DNA from: Candidatus Omnitrophota bacterium
Lineage (GTDB): Bacteria; Omnitrophota; Gorgyraeia; Gygaellales; Profunditerraquicolaceae
Direction: 5' to 3'
DNA length: 64,000 nucleotides
Assembly (NCBI GenBank): GCA_040754255.1
Contig: JBFMDA010000001.1
Location: 2,535 to 66,534, forward strand
In this document: positions 41,613 to 64,000 of the stretch, one piece after another
Position numbering within the stretch: the stretch's first letter is position 1
Layout: every line of letters begins with the position of its first letter
Made by a program: the position numbers and the translations under genes
The notes under the pieces: generated by a model
The model's database searches: none
Seen by the model: the letters and a program-made list of their open reading frames with translations, nothing else
What the model was told of the DNA's origin: nothing

Positions 41613-41837
41613 GTGACTAACAATATCAAGTTCATGAGCATCACCGAAGTTGCAGACAGGATCGGCGTAACGCCTAAGACCATTGTCCGCTGGGAAAAGG
41701 CGGGCAAGGTAAAACGCTCCAAGCGCGACTGGCGCGGCTGGCGTGTATATGACAAAGAAGATTTCCTTAGGCTTAAGGAATTTAAAGAAACCATTATTTA
41801 TTTTGAGGAGGATGGAGATGGAAATGATAAAGAATAA
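41613..41837 (+). CDS. small helix-turn-helix DNA-binding protein (MerR/excisionase-type HTH)
   Basis: GTG start with a GTAGGAGGAAAG RBS. SITEVADRIGVTPKTIVRWEKAG HTH. First gene of the EPS locus. Confidence 0.5.
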   Translation: MTNNIKFMSITEVADRIGVTPKTIVRWEKAGKVKRSKRDWRGWRVYDKEDFLRLKEFKETIIYFEEDGDGNDKE

Positions 41838-42600
41838 TAAAATATTGTATGTATTTATAACTATCAGCCTTTTTGTAGCAAAGCCGGTTCTCGCTCAACA
41901 GAATCTCATGCAAACTCAAACATCATTCATCGAAAAGCAGGAAAAAGGCCTTTCCAGTACAGCCGTTGACAATTTAAATAATTTTGATCCTTTAACATAT
42001 TCGCTAGGGCCAGAGGATGTAGTTGAAATTACGGTAATGAACCATCCAGAATTTTCAGGAAAATATGCAATTAATCTTGACGGAATACTTCAATATAAAT
42101 TTGTCGGTGATATACAAGTAAAAGATCTCACGAAAAAAGAGCTTGAGGAAAAACTAAAATCGATAATCTCAGCATATGTCATTAATCCCTCAATTAACGT
42201 TACTGTTGTTGAATATAAAAGTAAAGTTATTTACGTGCTTGGCGAGGTGAAACAGCCAGGAAAATATTATATGCGTTCAGAAAGTATTCCTATCAGAGAA
42301 GCAGTGGTGCAGGCGGGGTTGCCTCTTCAATCTGCAGCTATGCGTAAATGCCGTATCATCACTCCTGACAAAAACGGCAGGGTAAAAACCCGCAGCGTTG
42401 ACCTCTATGCAGTATTGTATGGAGGAAACCTTAAGCTTAACTTAGAAATGCGCCCAGGAGACGTATTATATGTTCCTTGCACTATTATGGCAAAATTATT
42501 TAGAGTCATCAGCCCTGTAACCTCAACGGTTTCAGGAGCCGCTGCTGGCCCAGAAGGAGCAGCTACAGCTAAAACATCCGCAGCCACCTTAGCTCGATAA
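41812..42600 (+). CDS. polysaccharide export protein (Wza/Poly_export plus SLBB, short PEP-CTERM-locus type)
   Basis: Signal peptide (ILYVFITISLFVAKPVLA) and a Poly_export/SLBB region. Start chosen at the ATG after the GAGGAGG RBS. The ORF-track start at 41743 is likely too far upstream. Confidence 0.65.
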   Translation: MEMEMIKNNKILYVFITISLFVAKPVLAQQNLMQTQTSFIEKQEKGLSSTAVDNLNNFDPLTYSLGPEDVVEITVMNHPEFSGKYAINLDGILQYKFVGDIQVKDLTKKELEEKLKSIISAYVINPSINVTVVEYKSKVIYVLGEVKQPGKYYMRSESIPIREAVVQAGLPLQSAAMRKCRIITPDKNGRVKTRSVDLYAVLYGGNLKLNLEMRPGDVLYVPCTIMAKLFRVISPVTSTVSGAAAGPEGAATAKTSAATLAR

Positions 42601-42644
42601 ACTATGAACTCCGAGCTATGAGCCAACACTACACAGGAGACGCA

Positions 42645-43946
42645 ATGGAAAATCAGATAAGTTCAAAATATCAAAATCCACTTGAATACTTAAAAATTTT
42701 GTTCCGGCGGAAATGGCTTTTTATAATTCCTATATTAATAGGACTAGTATTAAGCATTATTGCCTCCTTTGTTATTCCTCCTGTTTATCAATCGACTACG
42801 CTTATTCTTGTGGAGGAAGAAAAAATTATCAACCCTCTTATCCAAGGACTTGCTGTTTCTACAACGGCCTCGCAAAGAATGCAGACTATCCGAGAACAAC
42901 TTTTAGGGTGGAATAGCCTTGTCGATTTAACAAAAAGGCTGAATCTGGCTAAAGACATTGCTTCGCAACTTCAATTTGAAAACCTCATTTTCAGCTTAAG
43001 AAAGAATATTATTGTACAAATGAAGCAGCCTTTTGTTATTCAAATATCCTACTTTGGTAAAAACCCGGAACAAACAAAACTGGTAACAAAAACATTATCG
43101 GATATTTTAGTAAGTGAAAACATGCGTAAGCAAACTAAAGAAACCGATGTCGCCATAGATTTTATAAAAGGCCAACTCTTGGTATACAAACGTAAAATAA
43201 AAGAAGGAGAAATAGCTAATTTGGAAGATCAACTTCGAAAATTAATGGTCGATTCCACTGAAAATCACCCCATTGTGAAGGAACTAAAACAGAAGTTAGA
43301 AGTTGTAAAAAAAGAACTAGAAAGTGGCAATTACGAAGTCCAGAATATTCCGATTGCTAGTAATGATCCATCCTACCAAATACTAAAAGACGAGTTAGAT
43401 AAACTTATAAATAGAGATGCAGATCCGTCTAGCGCTTTAGCGTATGCTTCAGATAACAATGATCCGAATAAGTCAATTTACAAATTAATGTTGATGGACA
43501 AACTTGAATCCGTAGCTATTCAAGATAAAAACGTTAACGAAAAAATTTATAATATGTTACTGCAAAAACTTGAAACTGCTAAGATTACCCAGCGGCTAGA
43601 GGCTTCAAAACAAGGAACTAGATATACCATCATTGATCCTCCAAGACTTCCCCTCAAACCTGCAAAACCAAATAAGTTAATTGTAGTATTTTTGGGATTA
43701 TTTTTAGGAACTTGCACAGGAGCGGGTTTTGTATTTGGAAAAGAATTCCTCGACCAGTCATTTCTTGATATTGAAGATGTGAAAAACAGCCTAGAACTAC
43801 CCGTGCTAGGGGGGATATCGCGCATCACTACCACAGAAGAAATAAACAAAGAAAAATACAGAGTAAAGCAATGGCTAATAATCGGCAGTATCGCTGCAAC
43901 AGTGCTTATTATCAGCTCTGTGCTCTACGCGCTATTCAGGAAATAA
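42645..43946 (+). CDS. polysaccharide chain-length determinant (Wzz/GumC/CapA-like)
   Basis: TM1, a long coiled-coil periplasmic region and TM2 near the C-terminus. Start chosen at the ATG with an AGGAGA RBS. The ORF-track start 42618 lies inside a heptamer repeat. Confidence 0.65.
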   Translation: MENQISSKYQNPLEYLKILFRRKWLFIIPILIGLVLSIIASFVIPPVYQSTTLILVEEEKIINPLIQGLAVSTTASQRMQTIREQLLGWNSLVDLTKRLNLAKDIASQLQFENLIFSLRKNIIVQMKQPFVIQISYFGKNPEQTKLVTKTLSDILVSENMRKQTKETDVAIDFIKGQLLVYKRKIKEGEIANLEDQLRKLMVDSTENHPIVKELKQKLEVVKKELESGNYEVQNIPIASNDPSYQILKDELDKLINRDADPSSALAYASDNNDPNKSIYKLMLMDKLESVAIQDKNVNEKIYNMLLQKLETAKITQRLEASKQGTRYTIIDPPRLPLKPAKPNKLIVVFLGLFLGTCTGAGFVFGKEFLDQSFLDIEDVKNSLELPVLGGISRITTTEEINKEKYRVKQWLIIGSIAATVLIISSVLYALFRK

Positions 43947-62184: not shown

Positions 62185-62202
62185 TTAAAAGCAGAGGTAA
62201 AA

Positions 62203-63348
62203 ATGATGAAATTTATTTTCTGGTTACTACTATTCAGCATAGGTTATACTTATTTTGGCTATCCAATACTTATGGCGATTTTGTTGAAAATTAAGAAAAA
62301 CAAACTAGTAAATAAAGCAGAAATTTTTCCGTTGGTCAGCATTGTGATTGCTGCTTATAACGAAGAAAAGAATATCGGAGCAAAAATTTCTGATTTACTT
62401 AACTTGGATTATCCAAGAGAAAAAATGGAAATAACCGTAGTTTCCGATTTCTCTACTGATCAGACTGACGAAATTGTTAGAAGCTTTGCAGACAGAGGAG
62501 TTAAATTGGTGAGGCTGGAAAAACGTAGTGGCAAAATCGATGCTTATCGCAATGTTTTACCCGATTTGAAGGGAGAAATTATTGTATTTTCCGACGCTAC
62601 CAGCCTGCTTGATAGATATAGTATTGGAAAACTAATAAATAATTTTAATGATCCTACCGTAGGTTGTGTTGGCGGGCTGCTTATGTATATTAACCCTAAA
62701 AATGCTCTTGTAGGAAAGGGAGAAAGAAAATATTGGTCTTATGAGAAACGAATCAGGGAATATGAAAGCAAGCTAGATTCATTGCCTTCGGTTTCGGGAA
62801 CGTTATATGCGGTACGCAAGGAACTTTTCCCGCTCGATATGAAAGAATACCTTGCAGACGACTTGATCATTCCACTTATAGTAAAAAAGAAAGGATATCG
62901 TACGGTCTTTGAGAAAGGCGCGATTTGTAAAGATTTTACTACTATTACCATCAAAGAAGAAATGGCTAAGAGAATAAGAATAACCGTACAAAACATAAGA
63001 GGCCTTTTAGACCAGTTGGAAATTTTGAACTTTTTCAAATATGGTATTTTTTCTTTGTTGGTTTTTTCTCATAAGGTACTAAGACTACTGATACCAATTT
63101 TTTTGCTGGTATTATTCATTTGTAATATTATACTTATCACACAGCATTATCTCTATTCGCTCATCTTACTAGCCCAACTGCTATTTTACGTTATGGGCAT
63201 ATTTGGACATCAATTGAATAAGAAAATAAAGCTTACTGCGGCAAATACTTCGTTTTATTTTTGTCTTTCTAACATTTCAATTTTTATAGGCATACTTGAA
63301 TTTATAAAAGGGAATAGAGTTACTACCTGGGAAACGGTGAGAACCTAA
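62203..63348 (+). CDS. membrane glycosyltransferase family 2 (GT-A)
   Basis: VSIVIAAYNEEKNI, DAD-type DxD (VFSDATS) and C-terminal TM helices. Confidence 0.7.
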   Translation: MMKFIFWLLLFSIGYTYFGYPILMAILLKIKKNKLVNKAEIFPLVSIVIAAYNEEKNIGAKISDLLNLDYPREKMEITVVSDFSTDQTDEIVRSFADRGVKLVRLEKRSGKIDAYRNVLPDLKGEIIVFSDATSLLDRYSIGKLINNFNDPTVGCVGGLLMYINPKNALVGKGERKYWSYEKRIREYESKLDSLPSVSGTLYAVRKELFPLDMKEYLADDLIIPLIVKKKGYRTVFEKGAICKDFTTITIKEEMAKRIRITVQNIRGLLDQLEILNFFKYGIFSLLVFSHKVLRLLIPIFLLVLFICNIILITQHYLYSLILLAQLLFYVMGIFGHQLNKKIKLTAANTSFYFCLSNISIFIGILEFIKGNRVTTWETVRT

Positions 63349-64000
63349 TGTCAAAAGGCTCTATAATAGCTATGATGTATGTCATTACGTTTGCAATGGC
63401 CTTTTGTATCTCTTATACCCTTACTCCGCTGATAAGATGGACAAGCCTTAAAATGCATTGGCTTGATAAGCCAAACTGGCGCAAAGTCAATACAAATCCA
63501 ATGCCGCTCGTAGGAGGATTAGCTATATTTTGCGGTTTCTTAGCGACTATCTTATTTATTTCTGGTCAACAGCCGTTTTTTCCGATTAAGGATAAACTGT
63601 TATCGGTTTTAGCAACTTCGTTCATCATTTGCCTTGTCGGTATGGCTGACGATATAAAAGGCCTTAGCCCGCGCAGGAAACTATTTTACCAACTAGTTGC
63701 AGCCGCAATAGCTACCCTTTTAGGATTTATGATATTAAAAGTAAGCAGCCCATTCGGCGGTCATATTAATGCACCGTTTGTCTTTTCGCTTTTAATCACG
63801 GTTTTATGGATTATAGGATTTACCAATGCAATTAACCTCATGGACGGCCTTGATGGTCTCGCTGCGGGTGTTTCATCAATTATTGCAATAAGCCTATTCT
63901 TTGCAGCGATAAGAACCAATAACCCACTAATGGCAATTTTATCAATTGCCCTTGCTGGCAGCGCACTAGGTTTTCTTCCCCATAACTTCTTTCCGGCAAA
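63348..64000 (+). CDS. WecA/MraY-family polyprenyl-phosphate N-acetylhexosamine-1-phosphate transferase (3' end outside window)
   Basis: ATG overlaps the upstream TAA. KPNWRKVNTNPMPLVGGL, MADDIKGL and NAINLMDGLDGLAAG motifs. Open to the window end. Confidence 0.75.
   Translation, partial: MSKGSIIAMMYVITFAMAFCISYTLTPLIRWTSLKMHWLDKPNWRKVNTNPMPLVGGLAIFCGFLATILFISGQQPFFPIKDKLLSVLATSFIICLVGMADDIKGLSPRRKLFYQLVAAAIATLLGFMILKVSSPFGGHINAPFVFSLLITVLWIIGFTNAINLMDGLDGLAAGVSSIIAISLFFAAIRTNNPLMAILSIALAGSALGFLPHNFFPA

What the first reader, a model, noticed from the sequence alone, without database searches (positions are those of the whole stretch)
41613..64000. Large exopolysaccharide locus with a PEP-CTERM/exosortase-type gene set but no exosortase in view, including tandem CapK-like ligases, a double-GNAT FemAB protein and an ATP-grasp enzyme
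- Gene order: HTH regulator, Wza-like exporter, chain-length determinant, ExeA-like ATPase, BY-kinase, two CapK/PaaK adenylating enzymes, FemAB/GNAT, ATP-grasp, GT4, wecB, wzx, GT4, wzy, unknown, heparinase II/III-like lyase, GT2, WecA.
- This is the complement described for exosortase-associated EPS loci.
- Three activating or ligating enzymes (two acyl-adenylate formers and one ATP-grasp) plus a FemAB-type transferase imply a polysaccharide decorated with amino-acid or acyl substituents.
- No exosortase gene or PEP-CTERM protein is seen in the window (it may lie beyond 64 kb).
- The lyase of the heparinase II/III class inside the locus suggests built-in polymer trimming.
Basis: partly seen in the sequence, partly recalled or inferred. 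Interest (0 to 1): 0.55.

Follow-up and report, generated by a model that had tools for sequence, protein, structure and literature searches.

The report
Exosortase-linked exopolysaccharide operon in Omnitrophota
This is a roughly 25 kb operon from an uncultured Omnitrophota bacterium that makes, decorates and exports a surface polysaccharide, and the "missing" exosortase protein-sorting genes are the very next genes past the window's end, so it is a new member of a known kind of system.

Summary
**Observation: confirmed.** Window 41.4-64.0 kb is one tightly packed plus-strand operon of 19 genes.
- A low-GC sugar-specific cassette follows: two CapK/PaaK-like ligases, a GNAT-FemX fusion, an ATP-grasp enzyme, three glycosyltransferases, WecB, Wzx, Wzy, a deacetylase-fold protein and a secreted heparinase II homologue.
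- The partial WecA gene ends the window.

**Interpretation: supported.**
- Six genes hit XrtA/PEP-CTERM-locus families best, though all score below the curated cut-offs.
- A contig 98.6% identical to the window's last 6.3 kb continues from WecA into an exosortase, EpsI and three PEP-CTERM proteins.
- NCBI accessions run without a gap from the window's ATPase (MEW6074713) to that exosortase (MEW6074729), all on one 79,903 bp Omnitrophota contig.
- A sigma-54-type promoter precedes the operon. Similar motifs precede the PEP-CTERM genes in relatives.

**Inferred chemistry.** Sugar residues probably receive amide-linked amino-acid or acyl groups. This rests on analogy and protein folds, not on an assay.

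**Verdict.** New member of a known kind. The exosortase matches no named subtype, and the decoration cassette is uncharacterised. Interest is moderate.

The parts
41395..41410 (+). Sigma-54-type -24/-12 promoter element, TGGCACGGAAACTGCT, about 200 nt upstream of the first gene
   Evidence: It is the only match to TGGCAC-N5-YTGCW in the 64 kb window (0.09 expected). TGGCACGGTTATTGCT or TGGCACGGTCCTTGCT sits upstream of the MerR gene in L045, L047 and L048. Similar motifs lie upstream of the PEP-CTERM genes in L051 and L059, and upstream of the sugar-transferase gene that leads the PEP-CTERM cluster in L060.
41613..41837 (+). Small MerR-type helix-turn-helix protein (74 aa from the GTG start), the first gene of the operon
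   Evidence: PF13411, 44.4 bits. A 62-63 aa orthologue heads every related locus. AGGAGG lies 8 nt upstream of the GTG.
41743..42600 (+). Short outer-membrane polysaccharide export (Wza-like) protein: signal peptide, Poly_export domain and one SLBB domain, with no C-terminal membrane-spanning helix. The real start is probably about 41812.
   Evidence: PF02563 65 bits and PF22461. The best NCBIfam hit is TIGR03027 pepcterm_export, 90.5 bits against a cut-off of 180. Sequence.
42618..43946 (+). Polysaccharide co-polymerase / chain-length determinant (Wzz + GNVR domains, two transmembrane ends)
   Evidence: TIGR03007 pepcterm_ChnLen, 216.4 bits against a cut-off of 278.85. PF02706 and PF13807.
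43997..45001 (+). ExeA-like AAA_22 ATPase with a Cys-rich C-terminal tail
   Evidence: TIGR03015 XrtA/PEP-CTERM-associated ATPase, 308.8 bits against a cut-off of 324.5. It is 61-62% identical to the ATPases of L045 and L050. Accession MEW6074713.1.
45065..45853 (+). Cytoplasmic BY-kinase (tyrosine autokinase) with a Tyr-rich C-terminus
   Evidence: TIGR01007, 161.3 bits, above the 108 cut-off. TIGR03018 XrtA-associated kinase, 174.7 bits against a cut-off of 230.65.
45916..46440 (+). 174-aa bitopic protein (N-terminal MSK..L..L.E.RQ motif, one transmembrane segment, coiled coil).
   Evidence: No family hit. Small proteins of 147-169 aa with the same architecture lie between the ATPase and the kinase in L045, L047 and L048. 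It is 54-56% identical to its L044 counterpart.
46476..47828 (+). CapK/PaaK-like adenylate-forming ligase 1
   Evidence: NF045666, 164.5 bits (below cut-off), and PaaK families. PDB PaaK 4r1l, E 1.6e-22. The orthologue in L044 carries PF27533 CapK_C. Motifs SGSTG and TKTGK are present.
47830..49188 (+). CapK/PaaK-like adenylate-forming ligase 2, about 30% identical to ligase 1
   Evidence: NF045666, 142.9 bits. The L044 orthologue has CapK_C.
49185..50882 (+). Three-lobed acyltransferase: an N-terminal GNAT (about residues 1-185), a long helix, and a C-terminal FemX-like tandem GNAT (about residues 230-565). Its GC content is only 0.27.
50898..52097 (+). Probable ATP-grasp ligase (weak sequence support)
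   Evidence: NF005315, 33 bits over the full length, and PRK12767, 29 bits. PDB MCC-alpha biotin-carboxylase domain, E 4e-5. It is 92% identical to its L044 counterpart.
52094..53323 (+). GT4 glycosyltransferase, stp3-like
   Evidence: TIGR04063 PEP-CTERM/XrtA system glycosyltransferase, 432.9 bits against a cut-off of 442.05.
53256..54410 (+). WecB, the non-hydrolysing UDP-GlcNAc 2-epimerase that supplies UDP-ManNAc. The real start is probably about 53310.
   Evidence: TIGR00236, 352 bits, above the 210 cut-off.
54407..55930 (+). Wzx-type flippase
   Evidence: PF13440 and PF01943. Multiple transmembrane segments.
55936..57114 (+). GT4 glycosyltransferase, TuaC-like
   Evidence: NF047684, 184 bits (below cut-off). 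PF00534, 133 bits.
57122..58438 (+). Wzy-type polymerase / O-antigen-ligase-like membrane protein
   Evidence: PF04932, 75.8 bits. Its only NCBIfam hit is TIGR03097, the exosortase A-associated O-ligase family, 80.1 bits against a cut-off of 188. Accession MEW6074724.1.
58428..59777 (+). 449-aa protein with a divergent polysaccharide-deacetylase (CE4/NodB) fold and a C-terminal beta-sandwich. It has no signal peptide.
59770..62184 (+). Secreted heparinase II (PL21-like) homologue, either a lyase or possibly a C5-epimerase acting on uronate-containing polymer
   Evidence: PDB 2fuq/3e7j, E about 1e-32, over residues 130-789. Tyr257, His406, Glu205, Asp425 and His451 equivalents are conserved. 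His408 aligns with Gln, and His202 is not aligned. N-terminal signal peptide.
62203..63348 (+). GT2 membrane glycosyltransferase (PgaC/IcaA-like architecture)
   Evidence: PF00535, 87 bits. TIGR03937, 77.7 bits (below cut-off). The same position before the initiating transferase and exosortase is conserved in L059 and L060.
63348..64000 (+). WecA/MraY-family initiating HexNAc-1-phosphate transferase, cut by the window's end (full length 359 aa in L051). The exosortase starts at its stop codon.
   Evidence: PF00953, 113 bits. The full gene in L051 is followed at +1 by the exosortase.

Best explanation
The region is the main part of a Wzx/Wzy-dependent exopolysaccharide operon of about 25 kb. 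It is physically and probably transcriptionally joined to an exosortase/EpsI/PEP-CTERM protein-sorting module. It comes from an uncultured Omnitrophota bacterium.

**What is shown**
- The gene content and order.
- The operon-like packing.
- The exosortase, EpsI and three PEP-CTERM genes directly after WecA on the same contig.
- A sigma-54-type promoter motif in front.

**What is inferred, step by step**
1. *Transcription.* It starts at the sigma-54 promoter. An NtrC-type activator turns it on; in relatives that activator is encoded just past the PEP-CTERM genes.
2. *Repeat-unit assembly.* WecA puts HexNAc-1-P on undecaprenyl phosphate. WecB supplies UDP-ManNAc. Two GT4 enzymes and one GT2 enzyme complete a repeat unit of about four sugars.
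3. *Decoration on the cytoplasmic face.*
   - The deacetylase-fold protein frees a sugar amine.
   - The FemX-like domain transfers an amino acid from aminoacyl-tRNA onto an amine, and the fused GNAT domain acetylates it.
   - The two CapK-like ligases form amide bonds through acyl-adenylates, most likely between a uronic-acid carboxyl and an amino acid or amine, as VpsH does.
   - The ATP-grasp enzyme makes a further amide through an acyl-phosphate.
4. *Export.* Wzx flips the unit and Wzy polymerises it. The co-polymerase and BY-kinase set chain length. The short Wza-like protein needs a separate outer-membrane barrel to export the polymer.
5. *Periplasmic processing.* The secreted heparinase II homologue cuts or remodels the uronate-containing polymer.
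6. *Protein sorting.* The exosortase with EpsI cleaves the PEP-CTERM proteins and delivers them to the polysaccharide layer.
For: **Gene identities and packing**
- Family assignments.
- Intergenic gaps of 0-63 nt or overlaps between all 19 genes.

**Exosortase module**
- L051 is 98.57% identical to window 57692-64000. It then encodes an exosortase, EpsI and three PEP-CTERM proteins.
- Accession numbers count exactly from the ATPase (713) through CapK1 (716), GNAT-FemX (718) and Wzy (724) to the exosortase (729), on one 79,903 bp contig.
- The tail GT2 - initiating transferase - exosortase - EpsI - PEP-CTERM genes - TPR protein - histidine kinase - sigma-54 response regulator - rpoN recurs in other Omnitrophota contigs. 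In L060 the transferase is a Bac_transf-type gene placed after EpsI.

**Sigma-54 motifs:**

**Conserved head.** Four further contigs with GNAT-FemX homologues begin with the same head genes and also carry CapK_C genes.

**Decoration enzymes**
- FemX-like fold and deacetylase fold.
- VpsH, a PaaK/CapK-like protein, is genetically required for the glycine amide on GulNAcA of a lipid-linked intermediate (PMC13463779).
- In L048, a CapK gene is followed by an amino-acid dehydrogenase gene and a 2-hydroxyacid dehydrogenase gene.

**Lyase.** Heparinase II homology, conserved catalytic Tyr/His/Glu equivalents and a signal peptide.

**Composition.** The low-GC middle (0.357) between the head (0.406) and the tail (about 0.40) fits a swappable sugar-specific cassette.
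Against: - Every XrtA-locus-specific family scores below its curated cut-off. The exosortase reaches no named subtype: XrtA 182.7 bits against a cut-off of 208.
- The regulators in relatives are generic NtrC/AtoS-like proteins, not PrsK/PrsR/PrsT orthologues.
- No UDP-sugar dehydrogenase is visible, so a uronic acid in this polymer is inferred only from the lyase and the CapK analogy.
- The ATP-grasp assignment is weak (33 bits).
- No acceptor or donor substrate of any decoration enzyme has been tested.
- The window's 565-aa protein itself does not hit TIGR03019 or PF13480.
- His202 of heparinase II has no clear equivalent.
- The rest of the source contig could not be read directly.
Confidence: 0.8

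Rival explanations
1. This is a generic O-antigen or capsule locus that merely sits next to an exosortase gene. The polysaccharide and the PEP-CTERM proteins have no functional connection.
For: All XrtA-locus families are below their cut-offs. The GT2 gene's closest relatives lie in unrelated phyla and in non-syntenic loci. The central cassette has a foreign-looking GC content.
Against: The exosortase starts at the stop codon of WecA in L051. The same GT2 - initiating transferase - exosortase - EpsI - PEP-CTERM arrangement recurs in other Omnitrophota. The best NCBIfam hit for six genes is an XrtA-locus family. Sigma-54 motifs precede both the EPS operon and the PEP-CTERM genes.
Confidence: 0.07
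2. The CapK-like ligases do not amidate uronic acids. Instead they activate a free carboxylic acid (an amino, hydroxy or aromatic acid) and N-acylate a sugar amine that the deacetylase-fold protein has exposed.
For: No UDP-sugar dehydrogenase is visible in the locus. A deacetylase-fold enzyme is present. PaaK-type enzymes normally activate free acids. In L048 an amino-acid dehydrogenase and a 2-hydroxyacid dehydrogenase sit next to CapK.
Against: The only genetic evidence found in these literature searches for a CapK/PaaK-like enzyme in a polysaccharide pathway is VpsH, which adds glycine to a uronic acid carboxyl. The heparinase II homologue implies uronate in the polymer.
Confidence: 0.3
3. 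The heparinase II homologue is a polymer-level uronate C5-epimerase rather than a lyase.
For: The two reaction types share the C5 proton abstraction step (general knowledge). The His202 equivalent is not conserved and His408 aligns with Gln. A C5-epimerase step has been proposed in the VPS pathway.
Against: The homology to a true lyase runs over the full length, and Tyr257, His406 and Glu205 equivalents are conserved. Alginate loci set a precedent for a lyase inside a biosynthetic operon (general knowledge).
Confidence: 0.2

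Closest known systems
XrtA (exosortase A) / PEP-CTERM exopolysaccharide loci of Proteobacteria (Haft 2006, PMC1569441), e.g. the Zoogloea zooglan locus
   Same: - It has the same kinds of parts: exporter, chain-length determinant, separate tyrosine kinase, ExeA-like ATPase, GT4 'stp' transferase, Wzy-like protein, FemAB-related protein and deacetylase-type protein.
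- It also has an exosortase, a separate EpsI, several PEP-CTERM proteins and sigma-54 promoter motifs, and relatives carry an adjacent kinase plus sigma-54 activator.
- XrtA-locus families are the best hit for six genes.
   Different: - All subfamily scores are below their cut-offs. The exosortase subtype is unassigned: XrtA 182.7 of 208, XrtD 180.3 and XrtW 179.5 bits.
- The initiating enzyme is WecA-type, not EpsB-type.
- The gene order differs, and a MerR-type gene leads the operon.
- No TIGR03016 barrel, EpsL, asparagine synthase, TIGR03098 ligase or decarboxylase was found.
- The regulators in relatives are not PrsK/R/T orthologues.
- The host phylum is Omnitrophota.
Vibrio cholerae VPS pathway enzyme VpsH (PMC13463779)
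   Same: It is a PaaK/CapK-like protein inside a Wzx/Wzy locus that also has a WecB-type epimerase. It is genetically required for an amino-acid (glycine) amide on a uronic acid of the lipid-linked repeat.
   Different: No sequence comparison with VpsH could be run here. This locus has two diverged paralogues plus an ATP-grasp enzyme and a FemX-like enzyme. No ManNAc dehydrogenase is visible.
FemX / FemABX and other aminoacyl-tRNA-dependent transferases (MprF C-terminal domain, Sbb17)
   Different: Sequence identity is 10-14%. An extra N-terminal acetyl-CoA-type GNAT domain is fused on. The gene lies in a polysaccharide locus, not a peptidoglycan or lipid pathway. The donor and acceptor are unknown.
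Pedobacter heparinus heparinase II (PDB 2fuq, PL21)
   Same: The two align over their full length, and most catalytic and zinc-binding residues are conserved.
   Different: NF045571 scores only 204 bits against a cut-off of 600. The gene is encoded inside a biosynthetic operon rather than a catabolic locus. The His202 equivalent is unclear.

Membership tests
Exosortase/PEP-CTERM-associated EPS system (general) | An exosortase (8TM EpsH family) is encoded with the EPS genes | tested here: met
   None lies inside the window. It is the next gene after WecA in L051, which is 98.57% identical to the window: TIGR02602 162.6 bits, above 105.55, and TIGR04178 68.5 bits, above 23. A 98%-identical copy, MEW6074729, is on the window's own 79,903 bp contig, with accession numbers that count gene by gene.
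Exosortase/PEP-CTERM-associated EPS system (general) | PEP-CTERM substrate proteins are present | tested here: met
   Three proteins in L051 have TIGR02595 scores of 29.4, 27.5 and 22.2 bits, above the cut-off of 16. They end in (T/N/V)PEP, then a hydrophobic stretch, then a basic tail. None occurs inside the window.
Exosortase/PEP-CTERM-associated EPS system (general) | An EpsI partner protein or domain is present | tested here: met
   TIGR02914 scores 87.6 bits, above 42.8, for L051 7564-8178.
XrtA (exosortase A) system specifically | The exosortase reaches the TIGR03109 XrtA cut-off | tested here: not met
   182.7 bits (L051) and 189 bits (L059) against a cut-off of 208. XrtD and XrtW score about the same.
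XrtA (exosortase A) system specifically | The locus proteins reach the curated cut-offs of the XrtA-associated families TIGR03027, 03007, 03015, 03018, 04063 and 03097 | tested here: not met
   Scores against cut-offs: 90.5/180, 216.4/278.85, 308.8/324.5, 174.7/230.65, 432.9/442.05 and 80.1/188. Each is nevertheless the best-scoring family for its protein.
XrtA (exosortase A) system specifically | A PrsK/PrsR/PrsT regulatory trio is present | tested here: not met
   This was tested only in the relative L059. The response regulator scores 402 bits for TIGR02915 against a cut-off of 502.6, and AtoC and NtrC score higher. The kinase scores 82 bits for TIGR02916 against 300. The TPR protein scores 29 bits for TIGR02917 against 312. 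The window's own contig could not be read beyond about 68 kb.
XrtA (exosortase A) system specifically | A FemAB-family protein of TIGR03019 is present | tested here: inconclusive
   The window protein gives no hit. Two of its 28 homologues hit TIGR03019, with a best E-value of 3.1e-6. One short homologue carries PF13480. The fold is FemX-like.
Wzx/Wzy-dependent polysaccharide pathway | An initiating phosphoglycosyl transferase, Wzx flippase, Wzy polymerase, PCP and OPX are all present | tested here: met
   PF00953, PF13440/PF01943, PF04932, PF02706+PF13807 and PF02563 are all above their Pfam cut-offs.
ANL-superfamily PaaK/CapK-like adenylate-forming enzymes | Homology to PaaK structures, a CapK_C domain and the P-loop-like S/T-G-S/T-T/S-G motif | tested here: met
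   PDB PaaK E 1.6e-22 (run for CapK1 only). PF27533 on the 89-90% identical L044 orthologues. Motifs TSGSTG and TSGTTG are visible in the sequences. Both are below the cut-off for every named equivalog.
Heparinase II (PL21) lyases | Catalytic Tyr257, His202 and His406, and zinc ligands His408, Asp425 and His451 | tested here: inconclusive
   Tyr257, His406, Asp425, His451 and Glu205 equivalents are conserved. His408 aligns with Gln. His202 aligns with Ser, although a His lies 4 residues upstream in a low-confidence stretch of the alignment. The residue roles are from my recollection of the heparinase II literature.
CE4 / NodB polysaccharide deacetylases | A (beta/alpha)7 NodB fold with an Asp/His metal-binding and catalytic constellation | tested here: inconclusive

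The most novel reading that the evidence does not exclude
**Proposal.** The FemX-like enzyme, with the CapK-like and ATP-grasp ligases, may build a short amino-acid or peptide stub on the polysaccharide repeat unit. The free amine of that stub would be the nucleophile that the exosortase uses to attach PEP-CTERM proteins covalently to the polymer.

**Why it would matter.** This would mirror Gram-positive sortase, which attaches LPXTG proteins to the FemABX-built cross-bridge of lipid II. It would explain why FemAB-type genes travel with exosortase loci, and it would name the long-sought exosortase acceptor.

**Status.** Nothing here tests it. The fused N-terminal GNAT domain, which would be expected to cap an amine, argues somewhat against it.
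Probability: 0.1. Interest if true: 0.8.

Novelty: new member of a known kind. Interest (0 to 1): 0.4.

Why it matters
- **The open point is settled.** The exosortase is there, one gene past the window.
- **A complete system in a little-studied phylum.** Omnitrophota carry a full, conserved exosortase-linked exopolysaccharide system: head genes, a swappable sugar cassette, then exosortase, EpsI, PEP-CTERM proteins and a sigma-54 two-component module.
- **Not described in the literature searched.** Full-text searches pairing exosortase or PEP-CTERM with Omnitrophota/Omnitrophica found one paper with a single passing mention of each term, which was not opened, and none that describe such a system.
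- **An unnamed subtype.** The exosortase belongs to a large family (618 clusters with E ≤ 1e-10; the 120 listed share 61-98% identity with it). Every listed member that carries an organism name is from Omnitrophota. The two members tested reach no named Xrt subtype model, so the family may merit its own subtype.
- **A test bed for amide decoration.** The cassette gathers four different amide-forming enzyme types plus a deacetylase-fold protein. That makes it a compact system for studying how amino-acid decorations are put on polysaccharides, and what FemAB-type proteins do in exosortase loci.
- **Limits.** None of this overturns current understanding. The functions are predicted, not measured.

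Tried and rejected
**Retrieving the source contig**
- Exact-protein look-ups for the window's GT2, the 804-aa protein and P0001 found nothing.
- The contig is not among the GTDB species representatives. The best GT2 match was 49% identical, in a Clostridia MAG, and the GT2-linked loci are not syntenic.
- An exact 49-mer from the window's end is absent from the JGI metagenomes.
- The link came instead through the 449-aa protein's identical copy on L051 and through accession numbering.
- A metagenome scan with the exosortase returned only short contigs.

**Searches inside the window that found nothing**
- PEP-CTERM-like C-termini: none.
- A sigma-54 activator (GAFTGA motif): none.
- Rfam: only tRNA-Arg.
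- Sigma-70 promoter and terminator scans: at chance level.

**Hypotheses rejected**
- *The FemX-like enzyme acylates a 3-amino-3,6-dideoxyhexose.* I considered this because a cupin gene abuts it in L050. The cupin is a mannose-6-phosphate-isomerase type, not a ketoisomerase.
- *The relatives' regulators are PrsK/R/T orthologues.* Their scores do not support it.

**Sequence searches that failed where structure succeeded**
- A sequence-only PDB search found nothing for the C-terminal part of the 565-aa protein.
- The same was true for the 449-aa protein.
- Structure prediction was needed for both.

Full report
**1. What is in the sequence**

Window 41.6-64.0 kb holds 19 plus-strand ORFs. They are separated by 0-63 nt or overlap, so this looks like one long operon.
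- *Export genes:* a MerR-type HTH; a Poly_export/SLBB exporter; a Wzz/GNVR co-polymerase; an AAA_22 ExeA-like ATPase; and a BY-kinase.
- *Decoration genes:* two PaaK/CapK-like ligases; a 565-aa GNAT protein; and a weakly supported ATP-grasp enzyme.
- *Assembly genes:* a GT4; WecB; Wzx; a second GT4; Wzy; a 449-aa protein without any family hit; an 804-aa heparinase-like protein; and a GT2.
- *Initiation:* the first 217 codons of a WecA/MraY-family transferase.

GC content falls from 0.474 in the housekeeping 40 kb to 0.406 in the export genes and 0.357 in the sugar-specific part. The 565-aa gene has only 0.27.

**2. Is it exosortase-type?**

NCBIfam gives an XrtA/PEP-CTERM-locus family as the best hit for six genes. 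Each is below its curated cut-off.

| Gene | Family | Score (bits) | Cut-off (bits) |
|---|---|---|---|
| Exporter | TIGR03027 | 90.5 | 180 |
| Co-polymerase | TIGR03007 | 216.4 | 278.85 |
| ATPase | TIGR03015 | 308.8 | 324.5 |
| Kinase | TIGR03018 | 174.7 | 230.65 |
| GT4 | TIGR04063 | 432.9 | 442.05 |
| Wzy | TIGR03097 | 80.1 | 188 |

No window ORF ends in a PEP-CTERM-like tail.

The decisive evidence came from outside the window.
- The 449-aa protein has an identical copy on an ENA contig, L051.
- L051:1-6309 matches window 57692-64000 at 98.57% identity with no gaps.
- After the complete WecA (359 aa), L051 encodes the following:
  - an exosortase that starts at WecA's stop codon (TIGR02602 162.6 bits, above 105.55);
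  - an EpsI protein (TIGR02914 87.6 bits, above 42.8);
  - three proteins with canonical PEP-CTERM ends (TIGR02595 above its cut-off).
- A 98%-identical exosortase is recorded in NCBI on a 79,903 bp Omnitrophota contig.
- The accessions count exactly gene by gene: ATPase MEW6074713, CapK1 716, GNAT-FemX 718, Wzy 724 and exosortase 729.

The exosortase is therefore the gene immediately past the window's end.

**3. How general is the arrangement?**

- *The exosortase family.*
  - It has 618 clusters with E ≤ 1e-10. The 120 listed are mostly 270 aa and 61-98% identical to the query.
  - Every listed member that carries an organism name is from Omnitrophota/Omnitrophica.
- *The conserved tail.* Two long contigs (L059, L060) show glycosyltransferases, Wzy and GT2, then an exosortase, EpsI and three or four PEP-CTERM proteins. 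The initiating transferase lies just before the exosortase in L059 (WecA-type) and just after EpsI in L060 (Bac_transf-type). A TPR protein, a GAF-histidine kinase, a sigma-54-dependent response regulator and a divergent rpoN follow.
- *The conserved head.* Four contigs with homologues of the 565-aa protein (L045, L047, L048/L049, L050) all begin with the same head: MerR, exporter, co-polymerase, ATPase, a small membrane protein (absent in L050) and kinase. Each carries at least one CapK_C gene.
- *A close relative.* A 19 kb JGI contig (L044) shows the window's gene order from the 174-aa gene through the 449-aa gene, and its gene calls continue into the heparinase-like gene. Protein identity is 73-92% for all compared genes except the small membrane protein (54%).
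- *Regulators.* Those in L059 are generic NtrC/AtoS-type proteins and do not reach the PrsR/PrsK/PrsT cut-offs.
- *Subtype.* The exosortase scores 182.7-189 bits for XrtA against a cut-off of 208, with XrtD and XrtW close behind.

The system works like an XrtA system, but by the curated tests it is not a certified member.

**4. Regulation**

- The only match in 64 kb to TGGCAC-N5-YTGCW lies at 41395-41410, about 200 nt upstream of the first gene (0.09 expected).
- Near-perfect sigma-54 consensus sites occupy the same position in L045, L047 and L048.
- Similar sites precede the PEP-CTERM genes of L051 and L059, and precede the sugar-transferase gene that leads the PEP-CTERM cluster in L060.
- This parallels the sigma-54 motif that Haft described upstream of proteobacterial PEP-CTERM genes (PMC1569441).
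- No activator gene lies in the window.

**5. The decoration enzymes**

- *The 565-aa protein.* It models with pLDDT 87.8.
  - Its N-terminal lobe is an ordinary GNAT.
  - Its C-terminal 330 residues match aminoacyl-tRNA-dependent transferases:

    |---|---|---|
    | FemX (W. viridescens) | 4ii9 | 15.7 |
    | MprF soluble domain | 6lv0 | 13.2 |
    | L-PGS | 4v36 | 12.7 |
    | Sbb17 | 9wqx | 12.6 |
    | FemX (S. aureus) | 6snr | 11.2 |

  - The window protein does not hit TIGR03019, but 2 of its 28 homologues do.
- *The CapK-like ligases.* They resemble PaaK. A 2026 study shows that the PaaK/CapK-like VpsH is required for the glycine amide on GulNAcA in a lipid-linked Vibrio polysaccharide intermediate (PMC13463779).
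- *The 804-aa protein.* It aligns with heparinase II over its full length. It has a signal peptide and conserves most catalytic and zinc-binding residues.

My reading is that a sugar amine is exposed and re-acylated with an N-acetyl-amino acid, and that carboxyl groups are amidated. This is inference from folds and analogy. No uronic-acid-forming dehydrogenase is visible, and no substrate has been tested.

**6. Comparison and verdict**

- The closest known systems are the XrtA/PEP-CTERM exopolysaccharide loci (Haft 2006). Such loci are still being catalogued (epsSMASH preprint).
- Full-text searches pairing exosortase or PEP-CTERM with Omnitrophota/Omnitrophica returned one paper with a single passing mention of each term, which was not opened, and none that describe such a system.
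The thing itself is a new member of a known kind.
- Two modestly novel aspects remain: an unassigned, phylum-wide exosortase subtype, and an uncharacterised five-enzyme decoration cassette.
- The most novel reading not excluded is that the FemX-like enzyme builds the amine acceptor for exosortase transpeptidation. I rate that at about 10%.

Noticed in passing
window 34913-36217 (+), with a lipoprotein-like gene at 34176-34679: This is a 434-aa beta-barrel of the Alginate_exp family (PF13372, 88.7 bits), about 5.5 kb upstream of the operon. The operon's Wza-like protein is short and lacks an outer-membrane helix, so this barrel may be its outer-membrane channel.
   Followed up: partly
window 5693-6568 (-) and 5205-5738 (-): A second ExeA-like AAA_22 ATPase lies here, 48% identical to the operon's ATPase. 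Beside it is a 177-aa bitopic Pro-rich protein with an ExeB-like layout. The 177-aa protein, the BY-kinase and the 174-aa protein all start with a similar M-(S/G)-(K)-I-x-x-A-L-x-K motif.
   Followed up: partly
window 49185-50882: The GNAT-FemX gene has a GC content of 0.27, against 0.35-0.39 for its neighbours and 0.47 for the genome backbone. Its 82%-identical orthologue in L044 is also 0.27, while distant homologues sit at 0.46-0.56. This suggests a separate, recent origin for this gene.
   Followed up: partly
window 43997-45001, C-terminal residues about 285-325: The operon's ATPase carries a Cys-rich tail (CCSDC...C...CCPKC...C). The tail is absent from the 285-317 aa orthologues in L045, L047, L048 and L050. 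It may be a zinc-binding module.
   Followed up: no
window 39156-40235 (+) and 36451-38007 (+): A ParA/BcsQ-like ATPase is fused to a glycogen-binding AMPK1_CBM/CBM48 module. It lies downstream of a GH57 glycoside hydrolase. This is an unusual fusion that hints at positioning of glycogen granules.
   Followed up: no
window 26596-27996 (+): A PilT/T2SSE-type ATPase carries an N-terminal PilZ (c-di-GMP-binding) domain.
   Followed up: no
window about 41350-41375; L051 about 8285-8305; L060 about 11535-11560 and 11665-11690: An AT-rich motif resembling TTTTCA(T/A)AACATATTG lies 40-200 nt upstream of several of the sigma-54 -24/-12 elements. It may be an activator or IHF site, but in such AT-rich DNA it could be chance.
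   Followed up: partly
window 40316-40780 (+) and 40892-41143 (+): A 154-aa protein has an extremely Lys/Pro-rich N-terminal half, and an 83-aa small membrane protein follows with a strong ribosome-binding site. Both lie just upstream of the operon's promoter. Neither has a credible family hit; the 154-aa protein's only match is far below its cut-off and reflects low-complexity sequence.
   Followed up: no
L045 and L047 (both from GCA_040960315.1); L045 and L048: One assembly carries two separate loci of this type. In L045 and L048, rpoN lies divergently just upstream of the MerR gene. In L059 and L060, rpoN follows the exosortase regulatory module. This suggests that EPS loci are arranged around rpoN in some Omnitrophota.
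   Followed up: no
L051 9364-9987; L059 12501-13118; L060 12667-13278: One of the PEP-CTERM proteins (207 aa) is conserved at 51-63% identity across Omnitrophota loci, so it looks like a core substrate. The 95-aa protein is a Ser/Gly-rich, lipoprotein-like peptide.
   Followed up: partly
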